Below are positions 140 to 21,591 of a stretch of 64,000 bases of DNA, piece by piece. The notes under the pieces are model-generated. The model did no database searches, had not been told where the DNA came from, and worked only from the letters and a program-made list of their open reading frames with translations. A program made the position numbers and the translations under genes. Source of the DNA: an uncultured Bacteroidota bacterium (lineage in GTDB: Bacteria > Bacteroidota > Ignavibacteria > UBA10030 > UBA6906); contig CAVQPT010000021.1 of assembly GCA_963714855.1 (NCBI GenBank), positions 192,030-256,029 of the forward strand. The letters run 5' to 3'. How positions within the stretch are numbered: the first letter of the stretch is position 1; the number at the start of each line of letters is the position of its first letter.

Positions 140-1168
140 CTACTCCCCGACGCGGCGGAACTGATCGCTTTCGAGCGAGAAGGTCATCGAAATGCGGTGC
201 GTGTTTCCCAGCTGACCTGTGCCGTCGAACTTGGCAAACGAATAATCAATGTTCAGTTTGGGAAAGTGCACTCCGGCACCCATGGTGAGTTGCTTCACAT
301 CGCTGTACCCCATCCGCAGCGCCACAAGGTCCTTGAACTGAAATTCCAGCCCCGTGTGAAGATCGAAGCTCATGGGACCGAGGTGTGCAAGCGCTGCGTA
401 TTTCCGGTTTTCAAAACGGATGTCAAAATCCACCGCCGGCGCAAACCGGCCACCGAGGGCTTCGATGAAATATGCCGACCCGACCTTCATCGTCGGAGAG
501 ATCAGCTCGTTTCGTCCGGTGCTCCAGGCCAGAAACGTGGTCGTCACATCCTGCAGGTTCGCCCCGAGCACAAGGTTGTCCATCGGCGTGTACCAGATGC
601 CGATATCAAATCCGATTCCCGTCGCGCTGGCCTCGCCGAGTTCACGGCGGATCAGTTTCACGTTGGCACCATACATGAAGTCGTCCGAATACCGTCGGGC
701 ATACGTGAAATACAACGCGTAGTCGGCGGCATTGAAATACGTCACACGGTCGGGATCCACGCGGCTGAACTGTGCGGGATCATAGGTGAGATTTCCATTG
801 ATATCGACTCCCGCATTGCGCGTATCGGGAATATCGTCAACACCCAGCCGGATAAGACTGAAACCAATGCTGGCACGCGGGCCGACAGGGATCGCTACCG
901 CTCCGTAATCATGATTCACGAGCGAGCCAAACTGCTCGTCGTGCATCAGGGCAATCTGAGGGTAGTTGATCCGGGCCAGACCGGCCGGATTCCAGTAGCC
1001 CGCCGTGACGTCGTTTGCAAGCGCAACATACGCTCCCCCCAACGCAAGCGCCCGTCCACCCACACCAAGGGCAATAAACTCCCCTGCGTATTTTGCCACA
1101 CTCGTCTGCCCGACGGCCCACGCAGCGGGAAGACAAAGAACGACCACCAGCGCTTTGACCGCTCTCAT
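140..1168 (-). CDS. FadL-like/PorV-PorQ-family outer-membrane beta-barrel protein (T9SS-associated type)
   Basis: 352-aa ORF with an N-terminal signal peptide (MRAVKALVVVLCLPAAWA). It has a YWNPAGLA hatch motif typical of FadL/PorV-like 14-strand barrels and an alternating amphipathic beta-strand pattern to the C-terminus. The start was moved to an internal Met. Confidence 0.5.
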   Translation of the reverse strand: MRAVKALVVVLCLPAAWAVGQTSVAKYAGEFIALGVGGRALALGGAYVALANDVTAGYWNPAGLARINYPQIALMHDEQFGSLVNHDYGAVAIPVGPRASIGFSLIRLGVDDIPDTRNAGVDINGNLTYDPAQFSRVDPDRVTYFNAADYALYFTYARRYSDDFMYGANVKLIRRELGEASATGIGFDIGIWYTPMDNLVLGANLQDVTTTFLAWSTGRNELISPTMKVGSAYFIEALGGRFAPAVDFDIRFENRKYAALAHLGPMSFDLHTGLEFQFKDLVALRMGYSDVKQLTMGAGVHFPKLNIDYSFAKFDGTGQLGNTHRISMTFSLESDQFRRVGE

Positions 1169-1447: not shown

Positions 1448-1663
1448 TCAGAAAGAACTTCGGGTGAAGCAGATAACCTGCGCTCCCTGGCATGAATAGC
1501 CCGCACACTGATCGGGTCCGCAGGAGCACTGCACGAGTGCGCAGGGAAAACAGTCCACATTCTTTCCTTCGACAACACCCGTGATCATGATGGTGAGGAG
1601 CGCTAGCATCAGCAGCCCCGCCAACGCCCCACCGATGATCCGCCGTGAACAATGATGAATCAT
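1448..1663 (-). CDS. small secreted cysteine-rich peptide (paralog P1, 71 aa)
   Basis: AAGGAG Shine-Dalgarno 8 nt upstream of the ATG. N-terminal hydrophobic signal/TM segment, then a Cys-rich tail: DCFPCALVQCSCGPDQCAGYSCQGAQVICF. Shares a C-x-G-G-P/V-D-Q/N-C core with P2 and P3. Confidence 0.45.
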   Translation of the reverse strand: MIHHCSRRIIGGALAGLLMLALLTIMITGVVEGKNVDCFPCALVQCSCGPDQCAGYSCQGAQVICFTRSSF

Positions 1664-1675
1664 AGCTTTCTCCTT

Positions 1676-1886
1676 TCAGGGCAAACGGGAGGCACCGAGA
1701 CAGGAGTACCATGTCCCGTCGTCGCACCGCACCTCAGCGCACTGGTCCACCCCTCCGGCGCATCCCAGATCACCCCGACATGACACGCACGGTTTTGGTG
1801 GACGGGCCTGAAGTGCTACCGTAGCAAGAAGAATCAGGAGTCCGGCTGCGGCAACGGTGTTCAAGACATGTGATCTGCTCACAGGG
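1676..1886 (-). CDS. small secreted cysteine-rich peptide (paralog P2, GTG start, ~70 aa)
   Basis: GTG start preceded by AAGGAG with a 7-nt spacer, overlapping the last codons of the upstream NHL gene. Signal-like segment AAAGLLILLATVALQA, then PCVSCRGDLGCAGGVDQCAEVRCDDGTWYSC. Confidence 0.4.
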
Positions 1887-2982
1887 CTTCTCCTTCTGAT
1901 GTGGAAAGCGTGTCCATCTCCCACACTGTAACGGTTGTGTCGGCAATGCCGTAGAGCCTGTGCCCGGACACGTGGGCAACGGTAAGACCCGCCGGCAGGA
2001 GATATGACCATCTGTACAGTCCGTCCGGATGCCCGTACACATCCATGACACCTCGACCTTCTGTACCACGGGAGCCCGCATGCACATGGACTTCATCGCC
2101 AGTAAGACTCACATGGAGTGACAACCGCCGTGCGTCAGGCGAGACACGGACATAGTGGACGTCGCCGGCGTTGCGCGATACAACATCCGGGAGGCCGACA
2201 TGATCGATGGTCTGGACGAAGGAGTGTTCCGGGGACCTGCCATACTCAAACAGCCCGAGAACACCGGCACGATAGGCGGCGTATGCAAACCGGCCGTCAC
2301 TCGACCCTGCCATGCGGCCATCCAGAGCAATACCCACACGCTCCTGCTGGTCTGCAAGAACGCCAAAGGTCCCGATCAGAGTCCCCCGACGGTCGTACCG
2401 TGCGAAGAGCTTCGGACCTGCGGGAGACGACATCAGAACGTAGCCCTCCGGCCCGTACAGGGCGATGCGGAATGGAGGGCGTTCGGGACGAATGGTCTTC
2501 AGGAGTCGCGCATCCGGACCAAACACGGTAATGCGGCTGTTGACAGGATCGCAGATCCAGACCGTTCCATCGTCCGCGACATCAAAGTCGGTCGGATTCG
2601 TGAACTCGCCCGGACCCTGTCCTGCCTGACCCCCATACACACGGACCGGCACACCGTCGTGGGAGAATCTCCTGACACACCGGTCAGTCCAGTCAAGGAC
2701 GTACACATCACCGTCCGCATCGGTACGGACGCTGACGGGCGCAGACAGGAGAGGCCCCGGTGCACAACCGATGGTGATACCGCGCTCGAGCCTGTTCGCT
2801 TTCCAGATTCTTCCGGTTGATTGTTGCGGTGCAATCGTGTCCACTGCAGTGGCTCCCGGCGAGCGTGTGCCAGAAACGAGTTTCTCGACACGTTCTTCTT
2901 CCGGAACCAGGACCAGGCCGACGACGACTCCAGCGGCTATCGCGCCGGTCAGCAGGAGAAGCAACCGCCTTTCACGTCGCAT
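1879..2982 (-). CDS. membrane-anchored NHL-repeat / 6-bladed beta-propeller protein
   Basis: 367 aa with an N-terminal signal anchor. Repeated motifs (DGDVYVLD, DGTVWICD, GxxGxGxGEF) are characteristic of NHL beta-propeller blades. GGGAG RBS upstream. Confidence 0.6.
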   Translation of the reverse strand: MRRERRLLLLLTGAIAAGVVVGLVLVPEEERVEKLVSGTRSPGATAVDTIAPQQSTGRIWKANRLERGITIGCAPGPLLSAPVSVRTDADGDVYVLDWTDRCVRRFSHDGVPVRVYGGQAGQGPGEFTNPTDFDVADDGTVWICDPVNSRITVFGPDARLLKTIRPERPPFRIALYGPEGYVLMSSPAGPKLFARYDRRGTLIGTFGVLADQQERVGIALDGRMAGSSDGRFAYAAYRAGVLGLFEYGRSPEHSFVQTIDHVGLPDVVSRNAGDVHYVRVSPDARRLSLHVSLTGDEVHVHAGSRGTEGRGVMDVYGHPDGLYRWSYLLPAGLTVAHVSGHRLYGIADTTVTVWEMDTLSTSEGEAL

Positions 2983-3021
2983 GGCACTGTCTCCCTCGAG
3001 AGTGTGTACTGCCCCTTGCTC

Positions 3022-3246
3022 TCACAGGATCGGCCCCGCCGGGGCCCGCATGAAGCAGGTGACCGCAATGGAGACACCCTTGATCGAGATCTCGACCGCC
3101 ATGCAATTATCCGGTCCGCCGCTACACCCGATCTGCGAACAACCGAACGGCGCGGCCGCCGTTGCCTGAGCAGGGACGCCCAGGAGTGTGACACAGCATA
3201 CGCCTGCCAGTAGCAGGATCGCAATATACGACCGCACAGGTTTCAT
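3022..3246 (-). CDS. small secreted cysteine-rich peptide (paralog P3, 74 aa)
   Basis: Perfect AGGAGG RBS 6 nt upstream of the ATG. Signal peptide MKPVRSYIAILLLAGVCCVTLLGVPAQA, then FGCSQIGCSGGPDNCMAVEI. The core GCSGGPDNC matches GCAGGVDQC of P2. Confidence 0.45.
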   Translation of the reverse strand: MKPVRSYIAILLLAGVCCVTLLGVPAQATAAAPFGCSQIGCSGGPDNCMAVEISIKGVSIAVTCFMRAPAGPIL

Positions 3247-3301
3247 TTTTCCCTCCTGACGATATGTGGTACTGTGACGGAGACACACATGCCTGAGCAT
3301 C

Positions 3302-3730
3302 TTATGTCTCCGGCGCGGGCTTCGAACCGAACGTGCCGGTACACCAGACGTACCAGCAGAGGGCGACACAGAGAAGATTCTGGAACACGTGGAGAAGGTC
3401 GGCGTGAGCATATGGAAACGCGAACCAGCACCCGCATGGCCGGCCAGGAGCAACAACCACAAGAACAGCCGTGACCACGGCAAAGACGGTAAACAGGATC
3501 CCCGCTCCTAAGAGGCTGGTGCGGCGGGACGTTCCGAATAGCATTCCTGCCGTGAGGGCAAGTTCGGCTGCCACGACCCCACCTCCCACCGCCGCCGCTC
3601 CCCGTTGTGGAACGATTGGATTGCGCTGCAGAAGATCCACAAAAAGATGCCAGTGGAGAAGTTTGTCCACTGCAGCAGCTCCCAGAATTCCTGCAATGAC
3701 AAACGCGGTCAGAACGGTGATCACCTTCAT
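3302..3730 (-). CDS. DoxX/MauE-family 4-TM membrane protein with a CGC motif
   Basis: 142 aa with four predicted hydrophobic helices and a PCGCW motif. The architecture resembles MauE/DoxX membrane thiol-redox proteins. Confidence 0.5.
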   Translation of the reverse strand: MKVITVLTAFVIAGILGAAAVDKLLHWHLFVDLLQRNPIVPQRGAAAVGGGVVAAELALTAGMLFGTSRRTSLLGAGILFTVFAVVTAVLVVVAPGRPCGCWFAFPYAHADLLHVFQNLLCVALCWYVWCTGTFGSKPAPET

Positions 3731-4175
3731 GCGTTTCCCCCTTCGCCACGCTCCGGATCCCGTTTCTCTCTTACGCTGCTCGTCTCACCGGTGCGGCTGC
3801 GATGTGTCCCGCACCACGGAAGGCGGACCTCCACGCTCGGCAGGGGCGTTCCCGGTTCAGCCTGACGCTTCGCCCGAGTGCGTCCGCCGCCCGGCAGAAC
3901 CCATCTGCCGCAGCCAGAGTGCCCGCCAGTTCCCCGGGTGAACAGCATCGCTCCTTCCGGCGTGGGCGGACGAACCAGCGCGCTGCTGTCGGCCGTGATC
4001 CCAGAGCCGGACCGGAGTGCCGCACCGGTAAGTACGACTGTGCAGGGAAGATATGGAGTGGTTTCTCGAAGCATAGGAGTTCTGCCGCCGCTTCTGCGGT
4101 GGCACGTTCACCTATGACTACACGCGGCGGGAAGGAATTCCGAGGAACGATGAAAAAAAGAAGGGTGGGGATGCG

Positions 4176-9965: not shown

Positions 9966-11120
9966 TCATGCAGGCAGACAGATCTGTAGAAGGTCGGAGA
10001 GCTGTTGGGAAGTGAAGATCTGTTCAAAACGGAGCGATTCGGCAGGAACCGGACGGTCTGCCACGGTAAGAGTCTGCAAACCGGCATGCGTCCGCAGGTC
10101 ACCAATATGTTGGAGCTGCAAACCGCCGCCAGCGCGAAGGACCATGAGGCCAAGATCAACGGTGTGCGTCCATCCGGACGGATGCTGCATCAACACCCCT
10201 CTCACGAGCACATCGACCACCCTCTTTCCGTTCTGAGGAAGACGGGTGTAGTAGTCAAGCTCGGTGTCCTCATACGCGCCACTGGCAATCGCACGAAGGG
10301 CAGTGAGTATCCCCACGACATTGAGCTTCCGGACGAACTCCTTCTTCGGATCCTGCGGCCAGTGACCCGATTCAATCAACACCGTGCTTGTCCCGGTACC
10401 CTGAAAAAGATCACCGAATGCTCTCGGTTCGTGGACGTCGTCATAGCGCGTGAGGTGGCCGCGGGCGAGCGGCTCGAGAATGCGGCTGACCAGCGCCCCG
10501 ACATGCATGGCGCGCAATCGCGTTGGCGTGGCGGAGCGATCGGGTGACGGCGGGGGAGCAAGAAGGGCAAGCGCCGCGACCGCAGATGAGTCGCCGACCG
10601 AACTCAACTCCTGATCATGAAGATTGAACCCGAACTCGGGGCGCAGCCGCCGCTGCGTGTCAAACAACACACGCGCCTCGGGTGACGCCAGAACCAGCGC
10701 GTCACGGTTGACATCGATCCCCACGGCATTCCGCCTCTGCTTCCGTTCCGCCCCATCAGGATTCACGAGCGGAATCATATGCACCGTACTGCCCTGTAGC
10801 AGGATTCTCACCCAGGGCTCATCGTGCAAAAGAACCAGCGCATGAAGAATATCCATCAATGCCAGCGTGGCCGTTGGTTCATCGCCATGCATTTGCGACC
10901 AGAGCATCACCCGGCGTGCGCCGTTCCCTGCACTCGCCATCGTGAGGACACGCCCCTCGAGCGAGCGACCGATGTCCTCGAGTCTCAGCAGCGGGCTTGC
11001 TGCCAGCTGCCGGAGCTCTCTCTGGATTGGTGCGTGGGTGCAGTCGGAGGGCGTGAGGTGGTCTGCCCGGAACTCCGGATAGATCGCAGCAACGTGGGAA
11101 GCAAATTCCGCCGGTCTCAT
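9966..11120 (-). CDS. M14-family zinc carboxypeptidase-like protein
   Basis: HGDE (HxxE zinc ligand), NPDG and DVNRD motifs in the order typical of M14 / succinylglutamate-desuccinylase-like peptidases. Confidence 0.6.
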   Translation of the reverse strand: MRPAEFASHVAAIYPEFRADHLTPSDCTHAPIQRELRQLAASPLLRLEDIGRSLEGRVLTMASAGNGARRVMLWSQMHGDEPTATLALMDILHALVLLHDEPWVRILLQGSTVHMIPLVNPDGAERKQRRNAVGIDVNRDALVLASPEARVLFDTQRRLRPEFGFNLHDQELSSVGDSSAVAALALLAPPPSPDRSATPTRLRAMHVGALVSRILEPLARGHLTRYDDVHEPRAFGDLFQGTGTSTVLIESGHWPQDPKKEFVRKLNVVGILTALRAIASGAYEDTELDYYTRLPQNGKRVVDVLVRGVLMQHPSGWTHTVDLGLMVLRAGGGLQLQHIGDLRTHAGLQTLTVADRPVPAESLRFEQIFTSQQLSDLLQICLPA

Positions 11121-14100
11121 CGTTGCAGAGCCTCGAAGTACTTCTTGATCAGCTCCTGATAGTCGCGCGCATACCCTTCTTCCAGCGCGCGCAGGAGATC
11201 ACGCTGTAGCCGGTTTCGTCCTTCCTGTGTTGAGAGGTCGATCTCCGGCGGACTCTGGCGGGCCGTGGTTGTGCCGCTCTCCGCTCTGCGTCTCTTCTCG
11301 AAATCCCGTTCCCGCATGGAGCGCTGGGCATCGAGCAGACGCGAAAGAATGCGATCCTGCTTGCGGAGTGTTTCCGGATTGACCGAACCTCCGGCAAGGT
11401 CAGTCTGAACTTCCCGCATATCCTGTGCGACCCTGTTGAGATCGCCCAGCAGTTTGCTCAATTCTCCTGCCCGCGAAGCCTCGCGTGCAAGGTCCTCGAG
11501 CGACTTTCGCACCATCCCCTGTTCGCCGGCCAGGCGTCCGAGTTCGGCGGCCTGTTCCGGAGTAAGCCCCCGTGTGGCATCATTGATCCCCTGCTGTTGT
11601 CCGCCGAGTTGCTGAAGGCGTTGAAGGAACCCTCCCATGCCCATGCCCTGTCCTCCCCCCTGCATCATCCCCTGCGCCGCATCCTGCAGCTGCTGGGCGA
11701 TCTGGTTAAGCGCTCCCATGGCACCGCTCTGCTGCTGCGCCGCGGCCCCGCCGTTGCGCTGGTCCAGCGACTGCAGAGCGTCGGTCATTTTTTGCATCGC
11801 CTCGCCGATGGCTTTGCCCATCTCGGGAGAGATGGAGAACGTCTTCTGGGAAAGCGCCGACAACCTGTTGGTGATGTTGCCCAGGTCGCGGAGGACGTTC
11901 ATCTGCTCCTGCGCGTTCTCCCGGAATCGCTGCGATGTCGGATCCATGGCGCGCGAGCTGTTCTTCAGTTCCTCCTCGCGCCGCGACAGCTCCAGCAGGT
12001 CATGCGCCGCACGCCGCATCTCGTTCACAATCTGGCGCTGCTGGTTCTGCAGCATCTGCTGCTTCATCTGCTGGAGCCCCTGCATCATCTGGCCCATCTT
12101 CTGCATGGCCTGTTGCTGCTGCGTCGCCGCGCGGTCCATCTCTCCGCGCTCCATCTGCTCGCTGATCTCCCGCAGCAGCTTCTCCAGGTCTTCCTGCTTC
12201 ATGTTCTGGAGAAGGTCCTGCATCTCCTTGACGGGCATCTCCGCAGGAAATTCTTCCATGCTTTTCTCAAGCTCCGCAAGTTCTTTCTCGAGCTTCTGAT
12301 ACTTCTCGCGGACATCGTCCTGACTCCGTTGCGCCTCCTGCATCTTCCGCTCGCTCCGCCGGAGCGAATCGGCCATTTCTTTGTGCAACTCCTCCTGCTT
12401 CCCGAGCATCTCCTCCGTCCGTTTGAGCATTTCGTCCATCTTCTGCTCGATCCGGATCCGTTTCAGCAAATTCAGCGTCCGTTCGATACTCTTCCGGAAC
12501 TGTTCCTCGGAGAAAGAAAATTTCTGCAGCGCCTGTTTCATGGCTTCCGGACTCATCTGTTGCATTGCGTCCTGGAGCCGCTTCATGGCCTCGGCGAATT
12601 CCGGTGAATTCATCTCGGTCATCACCTGCTGCAGCTCCTGGTACTTCTGGAGCGTTTCTTCTGAAATCACTTTCTTGTTCTGCATCTCGTCCAGCATCGT
12701 ATCCATGGTGCGCTGAACGTCTTCCATTCTCTTCTGGATCTCTTCATACCGGCGAACCAGTTCCTCGGCCTTCTTCTGGTCTTCCCACGTCATCTTCTGA
12801 TCTGGCTTCTTCATCTCGCGGGCGAGATCATCCAGCTCTTTCTTCGCCTCCTTGGCCTCGGTCAGCGACTGCTGCAACGTCTCGCTGCTCTGGTCGTGTC
12901 CTTTGTCCACTGCGGCGAAGACCTCTTCGAGGGATGGAAGCCGGAGATAAAAGACGGCACTTGAAGCCGACTTTGGACCGCTGACAGCATCGTTGTCAAA
13001 CACCTCCGCATAGTACTGGACGACATCTTCCGGACCGAGGCGCAGCGTGGAGAGATCCCAGGTGTATGGGACCAGCCACTCCTGTCCCGCCCGACCCGTC
13101 AGTGGAATATCGATGAAGGTAAACTCCGGAGCAGCCTGTTCATACTTCGACTGCACAAGCTTGTGCCCGATGCGCAGGCGCGAGAGACCATAATCGTCGG
13201 ATGCCCGTATGAGCACCGCCAGCTTCTCGTCGCCTGAAACATTCAGGTTTATTCCCGGGGCAACGATGGCAACGGTTGGCGCCGCATCAGAGACAACACG
13301 GAGGGTGTAGTCGATGGGATCGGCATTTGCCACGCCATCGCGGTCCTTCACCACCAGATGATACCGTCGCTCTTTGTGGTGGGCCAGCCGGCCGGCGGCG
13401 TTTTTTCCCGTCACCTGCAGAGCCTGTGCCGTGCTATCACTAAAATACACGACGGCCTGGGCAAGCTCTTTCGTCGTCTCCACCTCCATCTGAATAGTCG
13501 TTCCGGCGGGCGCTGTTACATCACCGATGTTGTCATCCATCCGCAGGGAGGCCAGCCCTGTGTAGGGCGGGTAGAGGAGACGCAGGCGGAGGATATTGAC
13601 CACCGGACGATCCAGCACACGCAGGAGATATTCCGAGCTTGCATACGGACCGGCTTCGACACGATAGTGCATGGAAAGCCGGACGCTTGCAAGCGTCGTC
13701 CCGTACATCTGCTCTCCGTGCCGATCGAGGGGGCGCTCTTCAAACGCTAGTTGTCCTTCCGGCCGGACCAGCAGGCGAATCGGATGGTCTGTGCTCCCCC
13801 GAACCAGTGCGGTGATGACAACATCGTCACCTTTCACGATCTCTGCATTTCCTGGTTCCACAGCAATTGTGACATCCGGCGCGAGAGTGAACTCGGTACT
13901 GTAGTGAAGCAACCGGTATGCGGCGCCTCCGAGCGTCCCGGGAAGAAGGACAAGGCCGGCAACGATCGCAAACACTACGGCAGGGAAGAACCGGACCAAC
14001 GACCGGAGGCCTGAACGGTCGACCAGGACGGTGAAATCAAGCGGCTGCACTTCTTCCGACAGGTCGCGGAACGACGCATCGATGAGGTCGAGCGAATACA

Positions 14101-14509
14101 ATCGCCCCGAAGCCTCCCGATCGCGCAGAAGCTGGAGCAGGTTGAGGAGGCGGTCCTTGATGTGCGGAAAACCTCGGCCGACGCGGTCAGCAGTCTGTTC
14201 GTCCGCTTCGTAGCCGAGAAGCCCCAGCAGCCGACCGAGAGGTTTGCCGGCAATCCACACGAAATATCCCACGACACCGGCTGCGGAAAACAGAACCAGC
14301 ACTGTGCGGGTGAAAGGGGGGAGGTGGAGGAGTGATTCAACGATGAGGAGTACAACAAACAGGGCGAGGGCCAGGAGGCCCGTGCGCAGCACTGCCTGCA
14401 CGACCCGTGTCGTTGCTTCCGCGTGCCGCAGCACCTGCAGCCTCCGGAGGATCTCCTCCACACCGATCGGTCCCTGCTGGTCCATCTGGCTCACCTGCGT
14501 AGTGCCCAC
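11117..14509 (-). CDS. giant double-TM-anchored coiled-coil protein (DUF4175-like)
   Basis: 1130 aa. Two N-terminal TM helices, a central beta-rich region, then ~500 aa of K/E/Q/M-rich coiled coil. A Q/G-rich low-complexity stretch (QGMMQGGGQGMGMGG) precedes the C-terminus. Its start overlaps the upstream DUF4159-like gene. Confidence 0.5.
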   Translation of the reverse strand: MGTTQVSQMDQQGPIGVEEILRRLQVLRHAEATTRVVQAVLRTGLLALALFVVLLIVESLLHLPPFTRTVLVLFSAAGVVGYFVWIAGKPLGRLLGLLGYEADEQTADRVGRGFPHIKDRLLNLLQLLRDREASGRLYSLDLIDASFRDLSEEVQPLDFTVLVDRSGLRSLVRFFPAVVFAIVAGLVLLPGTLGGAAYRLLHYSTEFTLAPDVTIAVEPGNAEIVKGDDVVITALVRGSTDHPIRLLVRPEGQLAFEERPLDRHGEQMYGTTLASVRLSMHYRVEAGPYASSEYLLRVLDRPVVNILRLRLLYPPYTGLASLRMDDNIGDVTAPAGTTIQMEVETTKELAQAVVYFSDSTAQALQVTGKNAAGRLAHHKERRYHLVVKDRDGVANADPIDYTLRVVSDAAPTVAIVAPGINLNVSGDEKLAVLIRASDDYGLSRLRIGHKLVQSKYEQAAPEFTFIDIPLTGRAGQEWLVPYTWDLSTLRLGPEDVVQYYAEVFDNDAVSGPKSASSAVFYLRLPSLEEVFAAVDKGHDQSSETLQQSLTEAKEAKKELDDLAREMKKPDQKMTWEDQKKAEELVRRYEEIQKRMEDVQRTMDTMLDEMQNKKVISEETLQKYQELQQVMTEMNSPEFAEAMKRLQDAMQQMSPEAMKQALQKFSFSEEQFRKSIERTLNLLKRIRIEQKMDEMLKRTEEMLGKQEELHKEMADSLRRSERKMQEAQRSQDDVREKYQKLEKELAELEKSMEEFPAEMPVKEMQDLLQNMKQEDLEKLLREISEQMERGEMDRAATQQQQAMQKMGQMMQGLQQMKQQMLQNQQRQIVNEMRRAAHDLLELSRREEELKNSSRAMDPTSQRFRENAQEQMNVLRDLGNITNRLSALSQKTFSISPEMGKAIGEAMQKMTDALQSLDQRNGGAAAQQQSGAMGALNQIAQQLQDAAQGMMQGGGQGMGMGGFLQRLQQLGGQQQGINDATRGLTPEQAAELGRLAGEQGMVRKSLEDLAREASRAGELSKLLGDLNRVAQDMREVQTDLAGGSVNPETLRKQDRILSRLLDAQRSMRERDFEKRRRAESGTTTARQSPPEIDLSTQEGRNRLQRDLLRALEEGYARDYQELIKKYFEALQR

Positions 14510-15293: not shown

Positions 15294-16475
15294 TTAGTCC
15301 ATCACCTTGCGCAGAAATGCCGGCTTGTCGTGATCGCTCTTGTCGATCTTGTCTTTCGGCATCTCCTGCTCGCCCCGTTGTGTCGGCAGATTGATAGGGA
15401 CCCCGCGACGGACATAGGCGGGCTCGTCGAGCAGCTGCAGATCGTTTACCCCCGAAGGAATACGGTCCACCGGTTTGGCACTTTTCGCATGGCGGGAAGC
15501 CGCCGTCTGTTGAGCGGTGCGCCGGTTAAACCCGGTAGCAATGACGGTCACCATGATCTCGTCTGTCATCTTCTCGTCGATGACCGCACCCAGGATGACG
15601 TTGGCATCTTCACCCGCTGCGTCATGGATGATCTCCGTCGCCTCCTCAACCTCGAACAGGGAGAGGGAAGAACCGCCGGTGATGTTCACCAGCACGCCCT
15701 GGGCACCGCTGATGGAGACGTCCTCAAGCAACGGACTGGAGATGGCCATGTTGGCCGCCTCTACCGCGCGGTTGTCACCGTCGGCTACGCCCGAGCCCAT
15801 CACCGCATCGCCCATCTCCCGCATCACGGTCCGCACGTCCGCGAAATCGACATTGATCAGTCCGGGAACGGTGATCAGCTCGGAGATGCCGCGCGTGGCT
15901 CCGTGAAGGACCTGGTTCGCAATCTCAAAAGCTTCGGTGAGCGGCGTGTTGCGCTCCACGATGGTCAGCAGCTTCTGGTTGGGGATGATAATGAGCGTAT
16001 CGACCTGCTTGCGCAGCTCGTCGAGCCCCTGATCGGCCTGAGAAGAGCGTTTCTTCCCCTCACAGTGGAACGGGCGTGTGACAATCCCGACGACCAGTGC
16101 GCCGAGGCTGCGGGCGATGTTGGCAACGAGGGGTGCACCACCGGTCCCCGTACCGCCGCCCATTCCTGCGGTCACAAAAACCATATCGCTGCCGGTCAGG
16201 GACCGGGCAATCTCCTCGCGGTCTTCTTCCACCGCACGGTAGCCGATCGTGGGGTCAGCGCCGGCGCCGAGGCCGCGGGTCAGGTTCTTGCCGATCTGTA
16301 TTTTGTGCGCCGCCGCGCTGTTCTGCAGAGCCTGCAGGTCGGTGTTGATCGCGAAGAAGTCCACACCGTGCAGACCTTTTTTGATCATGCTGTTGACGGC
16401 GTTGCCTCCGCCGCCACCCACGCCGACGACCCTGATTTTTGCACCACGATCGAAGCCATTGTCCAGTTCGATCAC
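15294..16475 (-). CDS. ftsZ: cell division GTPase FtsZ
   Basis: Tubulin signature GGGTGTG ([16 protein letters not shown]), N-terminus [17 protein letters not shown], and an acidic/hydrophobic C-terminal tail [11 protein letters not shown]. Confidence 0.97.
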
Positions 16476-16523
16476 CGGTAATCCTCCTATGGGTTATGGG
16501 TTACACTTGTTTCAGGATTCACC

Positions 16524-17783
16524 CTAGAGCGCATCAAACCATGCACGCACTTTCCGGGCGACCCCGCTGAATGTCCGTTCTTTTGTCACCGATGCACTGC
16601 CCATGCTGCCGGTGGATTGCGAGTGCTTCAAACCATGATAGATCAACCCCACGGCCGTGGCATAGGCCGGATTCTCAATCTCCCGCACAAGGCCGCCGGA
16701 AAAACCGGCCGGGATGCCGATCTTGACCGGCATGCCGAGGACATCGCGCGCCAGGTCGGCCGTCCCTTTGACGAGCGCACCGCCGCCGGTGAGCACAACG
16801 CCCCCCGCCAGGTGTTTCGCATAGCCGGACCGTTTGATTTCCAGTGCCGCGATTTCCAGGATCTCTTCCATGCGCGGCTGTATGATCTGCGCAAGAACAC
16901 GCTTGTCGATCTCCACCGGCGTGCGGCCGCCGACCCCCGGGAGCACCAGAGGTTCATTGTCGATCACCGAGGAGACATATGCGCAGCCATGCTCTCTCTT
17001 CAGCCGTTCCGCCTGCTCGGTGAGAATGCCAAGCCCCTTGCGGATATCATCGGTGACCTTGCGCCCCGCAACACCGATCACCGCCGTGTGACGGATGGTA
17101 CGCTCTTCAAACACCGCGAGGTCCGTCGTGCCGCCACCGATGTCCAGCAGCGCTATGCCCACTTCCTTTTCTTCATCATCAAGCACCGCATAGCTGGAGG
17201 CCAGCGGCTCCAGAACCATGTCGCTGATCTCCAGTCCGGCGCGCTGGACGCACTTGTAGATGTTCTGGGCGGCGCTGACGAGCCCGGTGATGATGTGCAC
17301 ATTGGCTTCCATCCTCACACCCGACATGCCGAGCGGATCGTAGATGCCATCCTGTCCGTCGATAATGAATTCCTGGGGGATCACGTGGATGATCTTTCTG
17401 TCAGCCGGAAGGGAAACCCGTTTGGTGTCCTCGATCAGCCGGTCGATGTCGGCACGCGTCACTTCATGCTCGGGGCCGCTGATGCCAATCACACCCCGGC
17501 TCTGAAAGCTCTGGATATGGTCGCCGGCAATGCCCACGATCACGGAGCGGATGGCCACACCGGACGAAGCCTGTGCTTCGGCGATCGCGTGGGCCACGGA
17601 AGCCGTCGTCCGGTCGATGTGGGTCACCACGCCGCGGGTGATCCCGTCGGAAACGGCACGGCCGATGCCCAGGATATTCACCTTGCCGTTTGCATCGGTC
17701 CCGGCAACAACCACACAGATCTTTGTGGTGCCGATATCCAGACCTACGATCATATTGTCCATTGTGATTCCTTCCGGAGACAA
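16524..17783 (-). CDS. ftsA: cell division protein FtsA
   Basis: Actin-like ATPase motifs (VGLDIGTTKICVVVA, DIGGGTTDLAVF) and a C-terminal amphipathic helix. Confidence 0.95.
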   Translation of the reverse strand: MSPEGITMDNMIVGLDIGTTKICVVVAGTDANGKVNILGIGRAVSDGITRGVVTHIDRTTASVAHAIAEAQASSGVAIRSVIVGIAGDHIQSFQSRGVIGISGPEHEVTRADIDRLIEDTKRVSLPADRKIIHVIPQEFIIDGQDGIYDPLGMSGVRMEANVHIITGLVSAAQNIYKCVQRAGLEISDMVLEPLASSYAVLDDEEKEVGIALLDIGGGTTDLAVFEERTIRHTAVIGVAGRKVTDDIRKGLGILTEQAERLKREHGCAYVSSVIDNEPLVLPGVGGRTPVEIDKRVLAQIIQPRMEEILEIAALEIKRSGYAKHLAGGVVLTGGGALVKGTADLARDVLGMPVKIGIPAGFSGGLVREIENPAYATAVGLIYHGLKHSQSTGSMGSASVTKERTFSGVARKVRAWFDAL

Positions 17784-17786
17784 GAT

Positions 17787-18581
17787 TCAGTTCGACACGA
17801 TTTCGGTTGACGGATCCCAGCGCGCGATGACCTGCCCGGCAAAACGGAGGTCCAGCGCGCGCAGAGCGTTCGCACCACGGCTGCTCACGACGGCATTCCA
17901 GAACCCTTCCAGGAGCACCAGCTTGTTCACAACATCACCCCGCCCGAACGTCACGGGGATGCCATACTCTGCGGTGTACAGCACCAGATCACCATTTGAC
18001 GCCACATGCACCTCAGAGATCCGGTGATACAGACGATCCTGGAGCGTGCGCGCAACAAGCACAATCTCCAGTGCTTCCAGTACCGTAGGATGGCTCACGC
18101 GTTTTCCCGGTGTACAGGTCTGCAGCGATCCCGCACCGGTAATGACCGGGAGATCGAAGACTTCATCAGACCGGACCGGTGGAAGAATGATTCCCTCGGC
18201 ATCGATCATATACAGCCGGTCAGCGACAACAGCAGCCACGGGAATGCGTTCCAGGACGCGGATACGAATCCGGCTGGGATAATCCCTGTGCACGGAAACA
18301 TCCTTGAAAAACGTATTCTTCAGCACCCTGGTGCGTATGTCCGCGAGATCCACCTCTTCGAGGCGCTCGCCGATCGGTATATTTGCCGCACGAATGATCT
18401 TCTCCGACGGAACGATCCGGTTGCCTTCCACCCGGACGGTGCGGGCCATGAGGTCCGCCTTCCAGAGTTGGGCGCCTCCGGTGAGTGTCGCAACCAGAAG
18501 TGCGAGCACAATCAGAAGAACAAGGCCTCCGCGCCTTTTTCCTGTGTTCTCGGTGGATCGGCGTTGCCGGAAGAGAGGCAC
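17787..18581 (-). CDS. ftsQ: cell division protein FtsQ (POTRA domain)
   Basis: 264 aa, N-terminal TM helix and POTRA-like region. Sits in the canonical position between murC and ftsA. Confidence 0.75.
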   Translation of the reverse strand: MPLFRQRRSTENTGKRRGGLVLLIVLALLVATLTGGAQLWKADLMARTVRVEGNRIVPSEKIIRAANIPIGERLEEVDLADIRTRVLKNTFFKDVSVHRDYPSRIRIRVLERIPVAAVVADRLYMIDAEGIILPPVRSDEVFDLPVITGAGSLQTCTPGKRVSHPTVLEALEIVLVARTLQDRLYHRISEVHVASNGDLVLYTAEYGIPVTFGRGDVVNKLVLLEGFWNAVVSSRGANALRALDLRFAGQVIARWDPSTEIVSN

Positions 18582-18585
18582 TGTC

Positions 18586-19968
18586 TCAGCGCCCTCCTTT
18601 CAGTTGGGCAAGGAATTCCTCGCCGAACTTCCAGATGTCGCCCGCACCCATGGTGATGATGAAGTCCCCTTCGCGTTTCATCCCGTCGAGGAATGCAGGA
18701 ACCGTGGTTTTGTCGGCGACATAGTGCACCTGCTTGTGACCGAATTGTTTCGCCGCGTTGGCGATCAATTCGCCCGTCACTCCCTGAATCGGTTCCTCAC
18801 GGGCCGGGTAAACGTCCGTCACCACGAGCACATCGGCATTGAAGAACGATCGGCCGAACTCGTCATAGAAATCCCGGGTCCGCGAGTAGAGATGCGGTTG
18901 GAACACGCACACAACACGCCGCCGCCACCCGGCCTTCACACCTGCCAGCGTCGCTTTGATTTCCGTCGGGTGATGCGCATAGTCGTCGACGACCGTGATC
19001 CCGTTGATTTCACCTTTGACTTCCCAGCGCCGGAAGACGCCGGTGAACTTTTCAATCCCGGCCTTGACCTGCGCGAAGGGAACATCGAGCTCGAGACCGA
19101 CGGTGATGGCTGCAAGCGCGTTCTGCACGTTATGCTTGCCGGGGATCTGGATTTCAACGACACCCAGCTCGTCGCCGTTGCGCAGGACCGTAAAGCGGCT
19201 CCGGTTCTCTTTGTGCGAGATCTCGACCGCCTGCACGTCTGCCTGGCCATTCAGTCCGTAGGAAATGATCTTCTTCTTGATCTTCGGCATGATTTCCTGC
19301 AACGCGGGTTCGTCCAGGCAGAGGACGACAAACCCGTAAAACGGCACCTTGCCGGCGAACTGCAGGAAGGCCGATTTGATGTCCTCAAGGTCCCGGTAAC
19401 AGTCCAGATGATCTGTTTCCAGTGTTGTCAGAACTGCAATCGTGGGCGTGATGGAAAGGAACGAGCGGTCGTACTCGTCGGCTTCCACAACGATGAACTC
19501 TCCTTTGCCCATCCGCGCATTCGAACCGGCGAGACCATGCAGACGGCCTCCCACGATAACCGTCGGATCCACTCCTCCCTCCATCAGGACGAGACTGACC
19601 ATCGAGGTCGTCGTGGTTTTGCCGTGCGTGCCGGCGATGCCGATGCCGTATTTGAGACGCATGACCTCGGCCAGCATTTCGGCCCGCCGGATGACAGGGA
19701 TCGCGCGCTGGTGTGCAATAACGATTTCCGGATTGTCCGGCGGAATCGCCGATGAAAAGACCAGTGCATCGACGTCCTCTTCGACGTTACCGGCGCTATG
19801 GCCGACGTAGATGTGCGCACCCAGGGCAGCCAGCCGTTCGGTGTTGTCACTTGTCGCGCGGTCCGATCCGGTGATGGTGAATCCCTGATCGATCAGGATT
19901 TCCGCAATGCCGCTCATGCCGATGCCGCCGATGCCGACAAAGTGGAGTTTCTTAATTGAAGAAAACAT
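18586..19968 (-). CDS. murC: UDP-N-acetylmuramate--L-alanine ligase
   Basis: N-terminus HFVGIGGIGMSGIAEIL, Mur ligase P-loop GTHGKTTTTSM, and the DEYDRSF motif. Confidence 0.95.
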   Translation of the reverse strand: MFSSIKKLHFVGIGGIGMSGIAEILIDQGFTITGSDRATSDNTERLAALGAHIYVGHSAGNVEEDVDALVFSSAIPPDNPEIVIAHQRAIPVIRRAEMLAEVMRLKYGIGIAGTHGKTTTTSMVSLVLMEGGVDPTVIVGGRLHGLAGSNARMGKGEFIVVEADEYDRSFLSITPTIAVLTTLETDHLDCYRDLEDIKSAFLQFAGKVPFYGFVVLCLDEPALQEIMPKIKKKIISYGLNGQADVQAVEISHKENRSRFTVLRNGDELGVVEIQIPGKHNVQNALAAITVGLELDVPFAQVKAGIEKFTGVFRRWEVKGEINGITVVDDYAHHPTEIKATLAGVKAGWRRRVVCVFQPHLYSRTRDFYDEFGRSFFNADVLVVTDVYPAREEPIQGVTGELIANAAKQFGHKQVHYVADKTTVPAFLDGMKREGDFIITMGAGDIWKFGEEFLAQLKGGR

Positions 19969-19980
19969 GCCTGTCCGTCC

Positions 19981-20487
19981 TTACCGATCGGTGATACGCG
20001 GCCGCCGCCACGAACGCCGGGTGCGTTTGGGCACGCGTGCTGCGAGGGCGTGCATTTCGTGGATCAGGTCGCGCTCACGCTCGTACCGGCCGACCCTGAT
20101 CCGGTACAGCCGCCTGCGTTCCTTGATCTTGAACACGACCACCTGGAACCGTCCGCCGGTCTGCACTCCCGCTTCCCGTCCGATGTGCATCCATTCCATC
20201 TCGTCGATGCTAATGCGGCGTTCATTCCAGCGGTGGCGGAAGATGATCGCGTCGTGCGCGATGACCAGGCGTCTGTTGCGCAGCGCGTTGAGCGCGAGCG
20301 TCACAAGCGACATGAGCACAAAGAACACGATCACGTACATCAGCGGATCATTGAGGACGTATTCGAACTTGGCCTCGACAAAGTTCCCCCGGATGCCTCC
20401 GTAGACGATCAGCGTAAGCAAATAGATCAACGCCGATTGATAATAGAAGTCCAGTTTGTATTTGAACGATTTTTCGTCAGCCGTCAT
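19981..20487 (-). CDS. hypothetical 2-TM membrane protein with a cytoplasmic bPH-like domain
   Basis: ORF inserted between murG and murC. It has two hydrophobic helices, then a basic beta-rich domain (RRLVIAHDAIIFRHRWNERRISIDEMEWMHIGRE...FQVVVFKIKERRRLYRIRV). The start was chosen at an internal Met. Confidence 0.4.
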   Translation of the reverse strand: MTADEKSFKYKLDFYYQSALIYLLTLIVYGGIRGNFVEAKFEYVLNDPLMYVIVFFVLMSLVTLALNALRNRRLVIAHDAIIFRHRWNERRISIDEMEWMHIGREAGVQTGGRFQVVVFKIKERRRLYRIRVGRYERERDLIHEMHALAARVPKRTRRSWRRPRITDR

Positions 20488-21589
20488 GTCGTGTTCGTGC
20501 AAGGTGATAGAGTGACCGCGCAATGGCCATCGCCGCATCGGGGCGGGCCATTGACCGCGCTGCAGTCGCCATTGCCATCAATGTTGACGGCTGCGACAGT
20601 GTATCGAGCACCATTCCTTGTAACGCTGTTCCAGCGTCTTCGTCCGGACACAGCATCGCCGCTCCCTTTTCCACCATGGCACGTGCATTCGCCGTCTGGT
20701 GGTCTGCCGCGGCATGCGGATAGGGAACGAGAATCGACGGCACGCCGGCACACATCAGTTCTGCAAGAGTCGTCGCGCCCGACCGGCACACCGCGAGATC
20801 TGCCACGGCATACGCGCGTTCCATTGTTTCGCAAAATGGCAGCATCGTCACCATGGACGCCGGCACAGACGGGGGGAGTGCAGCTGCCAGTCTGGCGTAC
20901 TCCCGTTCTCCCGTGAGCCAGAGGATCTGCACACCGGCTGCGGTCACGTCCGCCACTGCGTCACCGATGGCCGCGTTTATCGATGCAGCGCCCTGGCTTC
21001 CACCCACGACCAGGAGCGTCCTGCGTTCAGGATCGATCCCGAGAGCAGCAGCTGCCTCGGCCCGGCGTATGGTGCCCACCGCAGCTCGGACGGGATTTCC
21101 GCTGACCATCACATTGTCCTCCCGGCGCAGAAAGCGGCGGGTCGTCTCAAATGCCAGATGCACGTGTGTCGCCCGCCGTGCGAGAATCCGGGTGGTCGTT
21201 CCCGGAACACTGTTCTGTTCCTGTACCACCGTCGGCAGACCCATCAGGGATCCCATGAAGACGGGCGGACCGCAGACATAGCCGCCGGTCCCCACCACAA
21301 CATCCGCCCCGAACTTCCGGAGAATGAAGAACGACTGAACCAGCGCAACGACAACTTTGAGCGGGAAGGCCAGGGTCGGAAGCGACACCGTCCGCCGGAG
21401 CCCGCTGATCCAGATCGGTGCAAAGTCATATCCCTGTGCCGGTACCACACGTGCCTCGATTTTCCCTTGTGTTCCAATGAACAGAATTGCCGCCTCCGGA
21501 TCGATCGTGCGGAGCGCGTCCGCAATCGCGAGGGCCGGAAACAGATGGCCGCCGGTCCCTCCACCGGCAAACACAACGCGAACAGCCAT
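20477..21589 (-). CDS. murG: UDP-N-acetylglucosamine--N-acetylmuramyl-(pentapeptide) pyrophosphoryl-undecaprenol GlcNAc transferase
   Basis: N-terminus VVFAGGGTGGHLFPALAIA. GT28 C-terminal domain motifs. Confidence 0.95.
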   Translation of the reverse strand: MAVRVVFAGGGTGGHLFPALAIADALRTIDPEAAILFIGTQGKIEARVVPAQGYDFAPIWISGLRRTVSLPTLAFPLKVVVALVQSFFILRKFGADVVVGTGGYVCGPPVFMGSLMGLPTVVQEQNSVPGTTTRILARRATHVHLAFETTRRFLRREDNVMVSGNPVRAAVGTIRRAEAAAALGIDPERRTLLVVGGSQGAASINAAIGDAVADVTAAGVQILWLTGEREYARLAAALPPSVPASMVTMLPFCETMERAYAVADLAVCRSGATTLAELMCAGVPSILVPYPHAAADHQTANARAMVEKGAAMLCPDEDAGTALQGMVLDTLSQPSTLMAMATAARSMARPDAAMAIARSLYHLARTRHDG

Positions 21590-21591
21590 AG

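What the first reader, a model, noticed from the sequence alone, without database searches (positions are those of the whole stretch)
1448..3730. Operon-like cluster of three paralogous secreted Cys-rich peptides with an NHL beta-propeller and a DoxX/MauE-like membrane protein
Three small ORFs (1448-1663, 1676-1886, 3022-3246; all minus strand) each have a strong AGGAG-type RBS and an N-terminal signal sequence, followed by a ~35-40 aa Cys-rich mature region.

The cores are recognisably homologous:
- P1: QCSCGPDQCAGYSC
- P2: GCAGGVDQCAEVRC
- P3: GCSGGPDNCMAVEI
- Shared pattern: C-x2-C-x3-4-G-C-[SA]-G-G-[PV]-D-[QN]-C.

The peptides are interleaved with a membrane-anchored NHL 6-bladed propeller (1879-2982) and sit downstream of a 4-TM DoxX/MauE-like protein with a CGC motif (3302-3730). 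A FadL/PorV-like outer-membrane barrel (140-1168) lies just past the last peptide.

This gene architecture does not match any named system I know. MauE-type proteins are known maturation factors for the disulfide-rich methylamine dehydrogenase small subunit, and NHL propellers often partner with thiol-redox or peptide-modifying enzymes. The locus is therefore a good candidate for a novel periplasmic disulfide-rich peptide family with dedicated maturation/export partners. Possible roles include bacteriocin-like, signalling or metal-binding functions. P2 also contains an RGD tripeptide.
Basis: partly seen in the sequence, partly recalled or inferred. Interest (0 to 1): 0.7.

Follow-up and report, generated by a model that had tools for sequence, protein, structure and literature searches.

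The report
MauE, cysteine mini-proteins, anchored propeller module
This is a real, conserved but undescribed gene module in uncultivated Bacteroidota/Ignavibacteriota-type bacteria, in which a membrane disulfide-forming enzyme (MauE) is encoded with small secreted cysteine-rich hairpin proteins and a membrane-anchored six-bladed propeller; it offers candidate natural substrates for the newly recognised MauE disulfide pathway.

Summary
On the minus strand lie MauE (3730-3302), peptide P3 (3246-3022), a TM-anchored NHL propeller (2982-1879), P2 (1882-1676, a GTG start overlapping the propeller stop, not 1886) and P1 (1663-1448).

All three peptides are under purifying selection against the closest relative.

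The peptides belong to an uncurated family with no Pfam, NCBIfam or PDB match. It has a Sec-type signal ending in an AxA site, then C-x4-[G]C-xGG-x3-C, a beta-hairpin and C-[YF].

Of 47 distinct homologous propeller genes from MAGs and metagenomes (31-60% GC), 43 have such a peptide directly upstream. A MauE with an invariant CGC lies upstream of 26 of 36.

A 2026 preprint shows that MauE is a DsbB-like disulfide oxidase whose CXC is the active site.

Most likely MauE oxidises the Sec-exported mini-proteins, which then act with their cognate propeller at the periplasmic face of the inner membrane. What the pair does remains unknown; the options are a complex, toxin and immunity, or substrate and enzyme.

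The PorV-like neighbour is a clade-specific neighbour, not part of the core. The RGD tripeptide is not conserved.

The parts
3302..3730 (-). MauE-family four-TM membrane protein (142 aa), a putative DsbB-like disulfide oxidase. Its CGC motif lies in the predicted periplasmic TM3-TM4 loop.
   Evidence: Pfam PF07291, E=2.6e-15. CGC, the DK of TM1 and the E of TM2 are invariant in 11 module-linked homologues. CGC is present in 48 of 49 MauE hits across the loci. The topology is inferred from the positive-inside rule by eye.
3022..3246 (-). P3: 74-aa precursor of a 4-Cys 'long-hairpin' mini-protein. It has a signal peptide with an AQA/ATA site, then GCSQIGCSGGPDNC, a beta-hairpin and CF.
   Evidence: Orthologues lie directly upstream of the propeller in every related locus. 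dN/dS is 0.29. AF2 gives pLDDT 73, a signal helix and a hairpin at 46-55/58-66.
1879..2982 (-). Six-bladed NHL/DUF5128-like beta-propeller (367 aa) with an N-terminal signal-anchor helix. It is predicted to face the periplasm.
   Evidence: Pfam NHL 27.2 bits against a cutoff of 20. AF2 gives pLDDT 83. The top Foldseek hits are NHL domains. There are 15 full-length homologues.
1676..1882 (-). P2: 68-aa precursor of a 6-Cys 'short-hairpin' mini-protein. Its GTG start overlaps the propeller stop (GTGA).
   Evidence: Sequence read directly. The orthologue P0051 in L006/L007 has the same 4-nt overlap. pN 0.27 against pS 0.79. It is not called as a gene in the source record.
1448..1663 (-). P1: 71-aa precursor of a 7-Cys short-hairpin mini-protein that contains a CSC motif. 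It starts 12 nt after P2.
   Evidence: Orthologues are P0038 and a copy in L006. dN/dS is 0.28.
140..1168 (-). PorV/PorQ-family outer-membrane beta-barrel. It is a neighbour, not part of the conserved core.
   Evidence: NF033709 127 bits against a cutoff of 90; PorV2 226 bits against a cutoff of 325. It follows the module only in the high-GC clade and is absent after the module in L020, L042, L062 and L073.
3731..4175 (-). 445-nt non-coding gap between dnaX and MauE, the presumed promoter region of the operon.
   Evidence: No conserved ORF was found: the 115-aa ORF looks non-genic and the 110-aa ORF of L004 shows no resemblance by eye. There is no Rfam hit and no consensus promoter. This assignment is inferred only.

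Best explanation
The locus is a five-gene operon encoding a conserved envelope module.

1. The three small proteins are exported by Sec. Signal peptidase I cleaves them after an AxA-type site, giving mini-proteins of about 38-46 aa.
2. Each mini-protein has a short Cys-bracketed loop (C-x4-C-xGG-x3-C) followed by an amphipathic beta-hairpin that is closed by the last Cys.
3. MauE has a CGC loop predicted on the periplasmic side, as in the MauE proteins recently shown to replace DsbB. It supplies the two disulfides of P3 and the three of P2 and P1. It does so either directly or through a thioredoxin-fold relay, passing electrons to quinone.
4. The folded mini-proteins then act together with the cognate NHL propeller, which is tethered to the inner membrane by one helix and faces the periplasm.
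5. The most likely form of that action is a small bound subunit or ligand. This would be formally analogous to the Cys-rich light subunit and propeller heavy subunit of methylamine dehydrogenase, which also depend on MauE.

Shown: gene presence, purifying selection, conservation of the module, the invariant motifs and the predicted folds.

Inferred: signal cleavage, disulfide formation by this MauE, and peptide-propeller binding.

The biochemical output of the pair is unknown.
For: Operon organisation:
- Gene spacings are 55, 39, -4 and 12 nt, and each gene has an SD-like site.

The peptides are real genes:
- All three are under purifying selection.
- The family recurs with four invariant Cys and a G.

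The module is conserved:
- 43 of 47 unique homologous propeller genes have a Cys-rich, signal-bearing ORF within 900 nt upstream. The background rate is 0.09 per 900 nt.
- This holds across 31-60% GC and propeller identities down to about 25-30%.
- Variant peptides such as 'GCGWPG...GRCY' fill the same slot.

MauE looks module-dedicated:
- It lies upstream of 26 of 36 propellers.
- It is duplicated together with the module in L048.

MauE chemistry:
- CGC, the TM1 Lys and the TM2 Glu are invariant.
- They match the active-site features of MauE proteins that complement E. coli dsbB (bioRxiv 10.64898/2026.03.05.709764).

Accessory genes in distant loci fit export, cleavage and oxidation:
- Signal peptidase I in L073 (TIGR02227, 116 bits against a cutoff of 47).
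- Thioredoxin/redoxin-like proteins with CKC or CDIC motifs in L061, L063 and L049.

Predicted folds:
- AF2 models show a complete six-bladed propeller behind a TM helix and a hairpin peptide.
Against:
- The preprint describes MauE as a generalist oxidase that probably works through a DsbA or MauD-like relay. No such relay is encoded in the window cluster.
- About a quarter of the propellers lack a nearby MauE.
- One propeller here serves three peptides, which fits strict 1:1 pairing poorly.
- P1 has an odd number (7) of mature Cys.
- Signal-peptide cleavage was judged by eye only.
- The mature peptides show no conserved residues beyond Cys and Gly that would point to a function.
Confidence: 0.55

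Rival explanations
1. Toxin and immunity. The mini-proteins are disulfide-stabilised bacteriocin-like toxins, and the membrane-anchored propeller is the producer's immunity protein that captures them at the inner membrane. MauE matures the toxins.
For: - Peptide-propeller units are repeated in tandem arrays with diversified peptides on a fixed Cys scaffold (L021, L047, L048, L054). This pattern is typical of toxin-immunity loci.
- The window carries several peptide paralogues.
- An OM barrel sits nearby in one clade.
Against: - No exporter across the outer membrane belongs to the conserved core.
- The peptides are net neutral, not cationic (read from the sequence).
- dN/dS is about 0.28, so there is no sign of diversifying selection.
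- The module sits in a syntenic core-chromosome position between dnaX and a PorV-like gene, near the dcw cluster, not on a mobile island.
Confidence: 0.15
2. Post-export RiPP-like pathway. The propeller is a periplasmic enzyme (lyase, cyclase or similar) that chemically modifies the Cys-rich peptides after Sec export, with MauE providing redox chemistry.
For: - Substrate genes are tightly coupled to the propeller gene.
- Six-bladed propellers include peptide-processing enzymes such as peptidyl-alpha-hydroxyglycine lyase (general knowledge).
- The propeller weakly matches ScyF, an NHL protein of scytonemin biosynthesis (38 bits).
- MauE homologues occur in candidate RiPP clusters of Streptomyces (PMC7794033).
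Against: - The residues invariant across the wide family are mostly the structural NHL motif (GxGPGEFxNPTD) and blade Asp and Tyr residues. No metal-binding His/Cys constellation or catalytic set is evident.
- The top structural matches are binding-type NHL domains.
Confidence: 0.12
3. Housekeeping oxidase with fortuitous linkage. MauE here is simply the cell's general DsbB-type enzyme. The peptide-propeller pair is an unrelated envelope component, structural or stress-related, that happens to sit beside it.
For: - The preprint argues that MauE is a generalist.
- 10 of 36 propellers have no MauE within 1.8 kb.
- In L002 the module is embedded in an Mdt-like RND efflux operon, suggesting a general envelope-stress context.
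Against: - The MauE-peptide-propeller order persists from 31% to 60% GC lineages.
- MauE is duplicated with the module within 6 kb in L048.
- MauE directly abuts the peptide or propeller, at distances of 3-60 nt.
Confidence: 0.1
4. Metal-binding peptides. The four to seven Cys act as thiolate ligands for copper or another metal in the periplasm, as in bufferins, rather than forming structural disulfides.
For: - The peptides are Cys-rich and carry signal peptides.
- They are encoded with a DoxX-clan membrane protein, which recalls bufferin clusters (PMC12452194).
- One locus lies inside an RND efflux operon.
Against: - The cluster has no MNIO/DUF692 or DUF2063 genes.
- The RND pump in L002 scores best as a multidrug type, not Czc/Cus.
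- The partner is a MauE with the oxidase CXC site, and Trx-like accessory genes occur in other loci.
- No His or Met accompanies the Cys residues.
Confidence: 0.06

Closest known systems
Methylamine dehydrogenase maturation (mau cluster: MauB propeller heavy subunit, MauA Cys-rich light subunit, MauE, MauD)
   Same: A MauE-family membrane protein is encoded with a small exported Cys-rich protein and a beta-propeller protein. MauE is needed for the disulfide-rich small subunit.
   Different: - The peptides are about 40 aa, against about 130 aa for MauA, and show no detectable similarity to it.
- They have no conserved Trp pair for a TTQ cofactor.
- The propeller is a six-bladed NHL type and membrane-anchored, not the seven-bladed soluble MauB.
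- The window cluster has no MauD, MauG or amicyanin genes.
[quoted passage not shown]
   Same: It is a Pfam MauE with four TM segments, a CGC in the TM3-TM4 loop, and a conserved Lys in TM1 and Glu in TM2.
   Different: - The characterised MauE proteins are presented as generalists acting through DsbA in E. coli.
- Here MauE is genetically tied to a specific peptide-propeller pair.
- The CXC is followed by x-F (CGC[WTAS]F) rather than F-G.
- Activity has not been tested.
Bufferins and other MNIO-modified RiPPs with DoxX genes (PMC12452194)
   Same: Small Cys-containing precursors with Sec signal peptides are encoded beside a DoxX-clan membrane protein. Tandem precursor genes occur.
   Different: No MNIO or DUF2063 genes are present. 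The partner is MauE rather than DoxX proper, together with a propeller. The Cys pattern is different.
Bacteroides DUF5128 / TolB-like six-bladed propeller gene arrays with small upstream 'NVEALA' proteins (recalled from genome annotations, not tested here)
   Same: Small proteins with a hydrophobic N-terminus are encoded just upstream of DUF5128-type six-bladed propellers, often in arrays. The arrays in L047 include DUF5128 and TolB_like propellers.
   Different: The peptides here do not match Pfam NVEALA. The two distant NHL/DUF5128 loci examined (L023 and L025) had neither a Cys-rich peptide nor MauE. No literature was found.
Disulfide-stabilised beta-hairpin peptides (protegrin, tachyplesin, thanatin class)
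   Same: A predicted amphipathic beta-hairpin pinned by disulfides.
   Different: The peptides here are bacterial, net neutral and twice as long, carry an extra N-terminal Cys loop, and are encoded with a propeller and an oxidase. No fold match was found in the PDB.

Membership tests
MauE (PF07291) / DsbB-like oxidase | Matches the Pfam MauE model above the gathering score | tested here: met
   57.3 bits against a cutoff of 27, E=2.6e-15, covering 2-129 of 142 aa.
MauE (PF07291) / DsbB-like oxidase | CXC active-site motif between TM3 and TM4 | tested here: met
   GRPCGCWF in the window. CGC is invariant in 11 aligned module MauE proteins and present in 48 of 49 hits. The periplasmic location is inferred from the positive-inside rule only.
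MauE (PF07291) / DsbB-like oxidase | Conserved Lys on TM1 and Glu on TM2 (the proposed quinone site) | tested here: met
   The motifs DK[LIV].HW and A.E are invariant in the alignment. The feature is taken from the preprint.
MauE (PF07291) / DsbB-like oxidase | Phe-Gly immediately after the CXC | tested here: inconclusive
   The high-GC module MauE proteins have CGC-x-F. MauE#2 of L048 has the canonical CGCFG.
MauE (PF07291) / DsbB-like oxidase | Restores disulfide formation in a dsbB mutant | not testable with these tools
   Needs a complementation assay.
NHL-repeat / DUF5128 six-bladed beta-propeller | NHL repeat signature and a six-bladed fold | tested here: met
   NHL 27.2 bits against a cutoff of 20; DUF5128 22.6 against 22.9, just below. 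AF2 gives six four-stranded blades. The top Foldseek hits are the Brat and TRIM NHL domains, E about 1e-14 to 1e-11.
Methylamine dehydrogenase (mau) system | A MauA light-subunit homologue with the TTQ-forming Trp pair, and a seven-bladed MauB | tested here: not met
   The peptides have no Pfam or NCBIfam hit and no conserved Trp in the family alignment. The propeller has six blades.
Bufferin / MNIO RiPP cluster | MNIO (DUF692) enzyme and DUF2063 partner adjacent to the precursor | tested here: not met
   All five operon genes are accounted for, and none matches these families.
GG-leader bacteriocins (class II / bacteroidetocin type) | A double-glycine leader and a C39-peptidase ABC exporter in the cluster | tested here: not met
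   The N-termini are Sec-type (a basic n-region, a hydrophobic core of about 12-20 aa, then AxA). There is no ABC or C39 gene in the window cluster or in the related loci.
Type IX secretion cargo | A C-terminal T9SS sorting domain | tested here: not met
   No T9SS CTD model in Pfam or NCBIfam matched the peptides or the propeller. The peptides are only about 40 aa when mature.
PorV/PorQ family (the neighbouring gene 140-1168) | NCBIfam PorV_fam above its cutoff | tested here: met
   127 bits against a cutoff of 90. The specific PorV2, PorQ and PorV equivalogs all score below their cutoffs.
Sec / signal peptidase I substrates | A tripartite signal peptide with small residues at -3 and -1 | tested here: inconclusive
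   AxA-like sites lie 3-12 residues before the first conserved Cys in nearly all members. P2 has L at -3. No formal predictor was available. A signal peptidase I gene follows the module in L073.

The most novel reading that the evidence does not exclude
The peptide-propeller pair is a new kind of periplasmic two-component system. In one version, the mini-proteins are chemically modified after Sec export by the propeller, which would be a post-export RiPP pathway using MauE redox chemistry. In the other, they form a diversifying toxin-immunity pair that uses a beta-propeller as the immunity protein. Neither has a described precedent in bacteria.
Probability: 0.2. Interest if true: 0.8.

Novelty: new variant of a known kind. 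Interest (0 to 1): 0.58.

Why it matters
MauE has only just been shown to be a widespread DsbB-like oxidase, and its native clients outside methylamine dehydrogenase are unknown. This module gives a genetically linked candidate client: a compact mini-protein of about 40 aa with two or three disulfides. That makes specificity testable, including whether MauE oxidises substrates directly or through a relay.

The work also defines a new disulfide-rich mini-protein family. It gives a first functional handle on a TM-anchored branch of the uncharacterised DUF5128/NHL propellers of the Bacteroidota-Ignavibacteriota group, namely that these propellers come with a cognate secreted peptide.

The gene callers behind the protein collection's record of this contig missed one of the three peptides, which shows how such modules escape notice.

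Tried and rejected
- **Curated family for the peptides.** Pfam, NCBIfam and PDB sequence searches, and Foldseek of the peptide model, all gave nothing.
- **Word-index protein searches for the peptide.** These returned only close relatives. The full HMMER scan was needed, and it still missed the variant subtypes found later by context.
- **A general DUF5128/NHL link to such peptides.** The two distant propeller loci (P0017, P0034) had no Cys-rich peptide and no MauE, so the link is specific to this subfamily.
- **A conserved propeller Cys (C144) forming a mixed disulfide with the odd Cys of P1.** Rejected, because C144 is replaced by S, A, N or T in the wider family.
- **A heavy-metal link through the RND operon of L002.** The pump scores best as a multidrug Mdt-like type.
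- **Regulatory RNA, promoter or terminator in the 445-nt leader or after P1.** Nothing rose above background.
- **An upstream 110-115 aa ORF as a sixth gene.** The window ORF is Arg/Gly-rich and shows no resemblance by eye to the L004 ORF.
- **Literature on NVEALA, DUF5128 or a MauE-propeller module.** None was found.
- **RGD in P2 as an adhesion motif.** It is not conserved in the orthologue.
Full report
**1. What is in the window**

Between dnaX (5888-4176) and a PorV/PorQ-family barrel (1168-140), five minus-strand genes lie in a tight row:
- MauE, 3730-3302.
- P3, 3246-3022.
- A 367-aa propeller, 2982-1879.
- P2, 1882-1676.
- P1, 1663-1448.

The gaps between them are 55, 39, -4 and 12 nt. 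Each peptide start has an AGGAG-type site 5-8 nt upstream.

P2 starts at GTG 1882, in a GTGA overlap with the propeller stop. The orthologue in L007 has the same 4-nt overlap.

Domain assignments:
- MauE matches Pfam PF07291 (E=2.6e-15).
- The propeller matches the NHL repeat above the cutoff and DUF5128 just below it.
- The barrel passes the NCBIfam PorV_fam cutoff.

AF2 models the propeller (pLDDT 83) as one N-terminal TM helix followed by six complete blades. Foldseek finds NHL domains first.

The region is core chromosome. lon and dnaX lie upstream, and the dcw cluster (ftsZ, ftsA, ftsQ, murC, murG, murD, mraY) lies at 15-25 kb.

**2. The small ORFs are genes**

The closest relative, from metagenome contigs L006 and L007, has a propeller 62% identical. 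It carries orthologues of all three peptides in the same order.

Nei-Gojobori estimates against those orthologues:
- P1: dN/dS 0.28.
- P3: dN/dS 0.29.
- P2: pN 0.27 against a saturated pS of 0.79.

A peptide HMM hits only these three ORFs in the 64-kb window.

P2 is absent from the gene calls on record for this contig.

**3. The peptide family**

Alignments show the following layout:
- A basic N-terminus.
- A hydrophobic core of about 12-20 residues.
- An AxA-like site.
- Then C-x4-[G]C-x-G-G-x3-C, a beta-hairpin, and C-[YF].

Four Cys and one Gly are invariant. There are two subtypes.
- The P3 type has four Cys and a long hairpin.
- The P1 and P2 type has an extra Cys two to three residues before the first conserved Cys (C-x2-C) and another in a shorter hairpin. 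P1 has a seventh Cys, in a CSC motif.

AF2 on the family alignment gives a signal helix and a hairpin at residues 46-55 and 58-66 (pLDDT 73).

Nothing matches in Pfam, NCBIfam, PDB sequences or PDB folds.

A full HMMER scan of 1.84 billion representative proteins found 22 hits at E below 1e-3. Twenty-one are proteins of 65-76 aa with the same design; the other is a 3471-aa protein.

An HMM built only from foreign 4-Cys mature regions scores P3 at 1.7e-19. P2 (0.04) and P1 (0.22) score weakly, although they are ranks 2 and 3 of 1164 window ORFs. Homology between the subtypes therefore rests mainly on the shared motif and on context: 6-Cys peptides occupy the slot upstream of homologous propellers in L020, L042, L044 and L047.

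**4. The module is conserved**

The propeller has 15 full-length homologues in the protein collection. It has 10 loci in GTDB genomes, all MAGs labelled Bacteroidetes, Ignavibacteriae or Ignavibacteria. It has 51 metagenome loci.

Using my own HMMs and a family-agnostic rule (50-100 aa, a hydrophobic N-terminus, and at least 4 Cys in the last 45 aa), the counts are:
- 43 of 47 unique propeller genes with at least 400 nt of upstream sequence have such an ORF ending within 900 nt upstream on the same strand. The background is 0.09 per 900 nt.
- The four exceptions are one frameshifted copy (L016), two second propellers in arrays (L047, L050), and one distant member.
- A MauE lies within 1.8 kb upstream of 26 of 36 propellers. 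Most exceptions are additional propellers inside arrays.

The order MauE, peptide, propeller holds from 31% to 60% GC.

Further observations from other loci:
- Extra peptides after the propeller, as in the window, also occur in L054, L062 and L063.
- Tandem peptides occur in L021.
- Arrays of peptide-propeller units occur in L047, L048 and L054.
- L048 holds two complete MauE-peptide-propeller sets within 6 kb.

Accessory genes in distant loci:
- Signal peptidase I directly after the propeller in L073.
- Thioredoxin or redoxin-like proteins with CKC or CDIC motifs in L061, L063 and L049.

The PorV-like gene follows the module only in the high-GC clade. In L002 it is replaced by an Mdt-like RND operon that encloses the module.

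Two distant NHL/DUF5128 loci lack both the peptide and MauE.

**5. Mechanism**

A 2026 preprint (bioRxiv 10.64898/2026.03.05.709764) reports the following for MauE:
- A CXC in the periplasmic TM3-TM4 loop is required.
- A TM1 Lys and a TM2 Glu are conserved near a predicted quinone site.

The module MauE proteins have all three features invariant.

By the positive-inside rule, which is my reading of the sequence, three elements meet at the periplasmic face of the inner membrane: the CGC loop, the propeller ectodomain and the exported peptides.

The best-supported model is therefore Sec export, cleavage by signal peptidase I, MauE-dependent formation of two or three disulfides, and then action of the folded hairpin mini-protein with its cognate propeller.

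I favour a bound small subunit or ligand. The reasons are the near-obligate gene pairing, duplication as units, the amphipathic hairpin, and binding-type NHL domains as the best structural matches. This would parallel the MauE-dependent Cys-rich light subunit and propeller heavy subunit of methylamine dehydrogenase.

The parallel is one of working principle, not membership. The peptides have no MauA similarity and no conserved Trp, and the propeller has six blades and is membrane-anchored.

Binding, cleavage and oxidation are all inferred.

**6. Rivals**

- **Toxin and immunity.** This fits the arrays and the paralogues. It lacks an outer-membrane exporter, a cationic character, and any sign of diversifying selection.
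- **Post-export RiPP.** The propeller would be an enzyme. This is not excluded, but the conserved propeller residues look structural.
- **Housekeeping MauE.** This fits the preprint's generalist view and the propellers that lack MauE. It is opposed by the persistent adjacency and the co-duplication of MauE with the module.
- **Metal binding, as in bufferins (PMC12452194).** This lacks MNIO and DUF2063 genes and lacks any metal-type pump.

**7. Novelty and verdict**

The components belong to known superfamilies, and MauE's chemistry has been published. The peptide family and the three-part module are not in Pfam, NCBIfam or the PDB, nor in the literature I could search.

I rate it a new variant of a known kind: dedicated oxidative maturation of a small exported Cys-rich protein that partners a propeller.

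Interest is moderate to good. It hands the new MauE pathway a compact, genetically linked candidate substrate, and it gives an uncharacterised propeller clade a partner. The function of the pair remains open.

Noticed in passing
window 1676-1882 (-): P2 is missing from the gene calls on record for this contig, although its orthologue is called in another assembly. It has a GTG start in a GTGA overlap with the upstream stop.
   Followed up: yes
L002/L003 4018-13086: In one relative the MauE-peptide-propeller module sits inside an RND efflux operon: an adaptor gene whose stop overlaps the MauE start, then two Mdt-like RND permeases after the propeller. This replaces the PorV-like neighbour.
   Followed up: partly
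L016 3880-4810: One MAG (CAVPCZ01) has two copies of the module (L016 and L019). In L016 the MauE-peptide region is split over two frames, so it is either a pseudogene or an assembly error.
   Followed up: no
L054 1372-1611; L047 1468-1683 and 5121-5354: Other, unrelated-looking Cys-rich signal-bearing peptides sit next to TolB_like or DUF5128 propellers in the same arrays. One reads ACCYATCTAGSCSCGSCLNCSCTCDKAGNPSCTCTGCAD. This hints at a broader rule of peptide plus six-bladed propeller.
   Followed up: partly
L073 4988-5566: A signal peptidase I gene lies immediately downstream of the propeller in a marine (TARA) scaffold. It may be a dedicated processing enzyme for the peptide.
   Followed up: partly
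L061 3345-3896; L063 3360-3905: Membrane-anchored thioredoxin-like proteins lie between the peptide and the propeller. They carry a CKC (CXC) motif where a CXXC would be expected, mirroring the CGC of MauE.
   Followed up: no
window 53400-53498: An imperfect tandem repeat with periods of 15, 30 and 45 nt (unit GGAAGAAACCCGCCG). It lies mostly in the gap between two large ORFs.
   Followed up: no
window 1506-1545: Tandem Repeats Finder reports a 21-nt imperfect direct repeat (1.9 copies) inside the P1 coding region, spanning the CSCGPDQC/AGYSC segment. It may be a trace of internal duplication or chance.
   Followed up: no
window 15294-25283: A division and cell-wall (dcw) gene cluster (ftsZ, ftsA, ftsQ, murC, murG, murD, mraY) lies on the minus strand. 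It shows that the module is in a core chromosomal region.
   Followed up: partly
window 11117-14509 (-): A 1130-aa protein with a DUF4175 domain sits next to an M14 carboxypeptidase-like gene (9966-11120). Both are uncharacterised.
   Followed up: no
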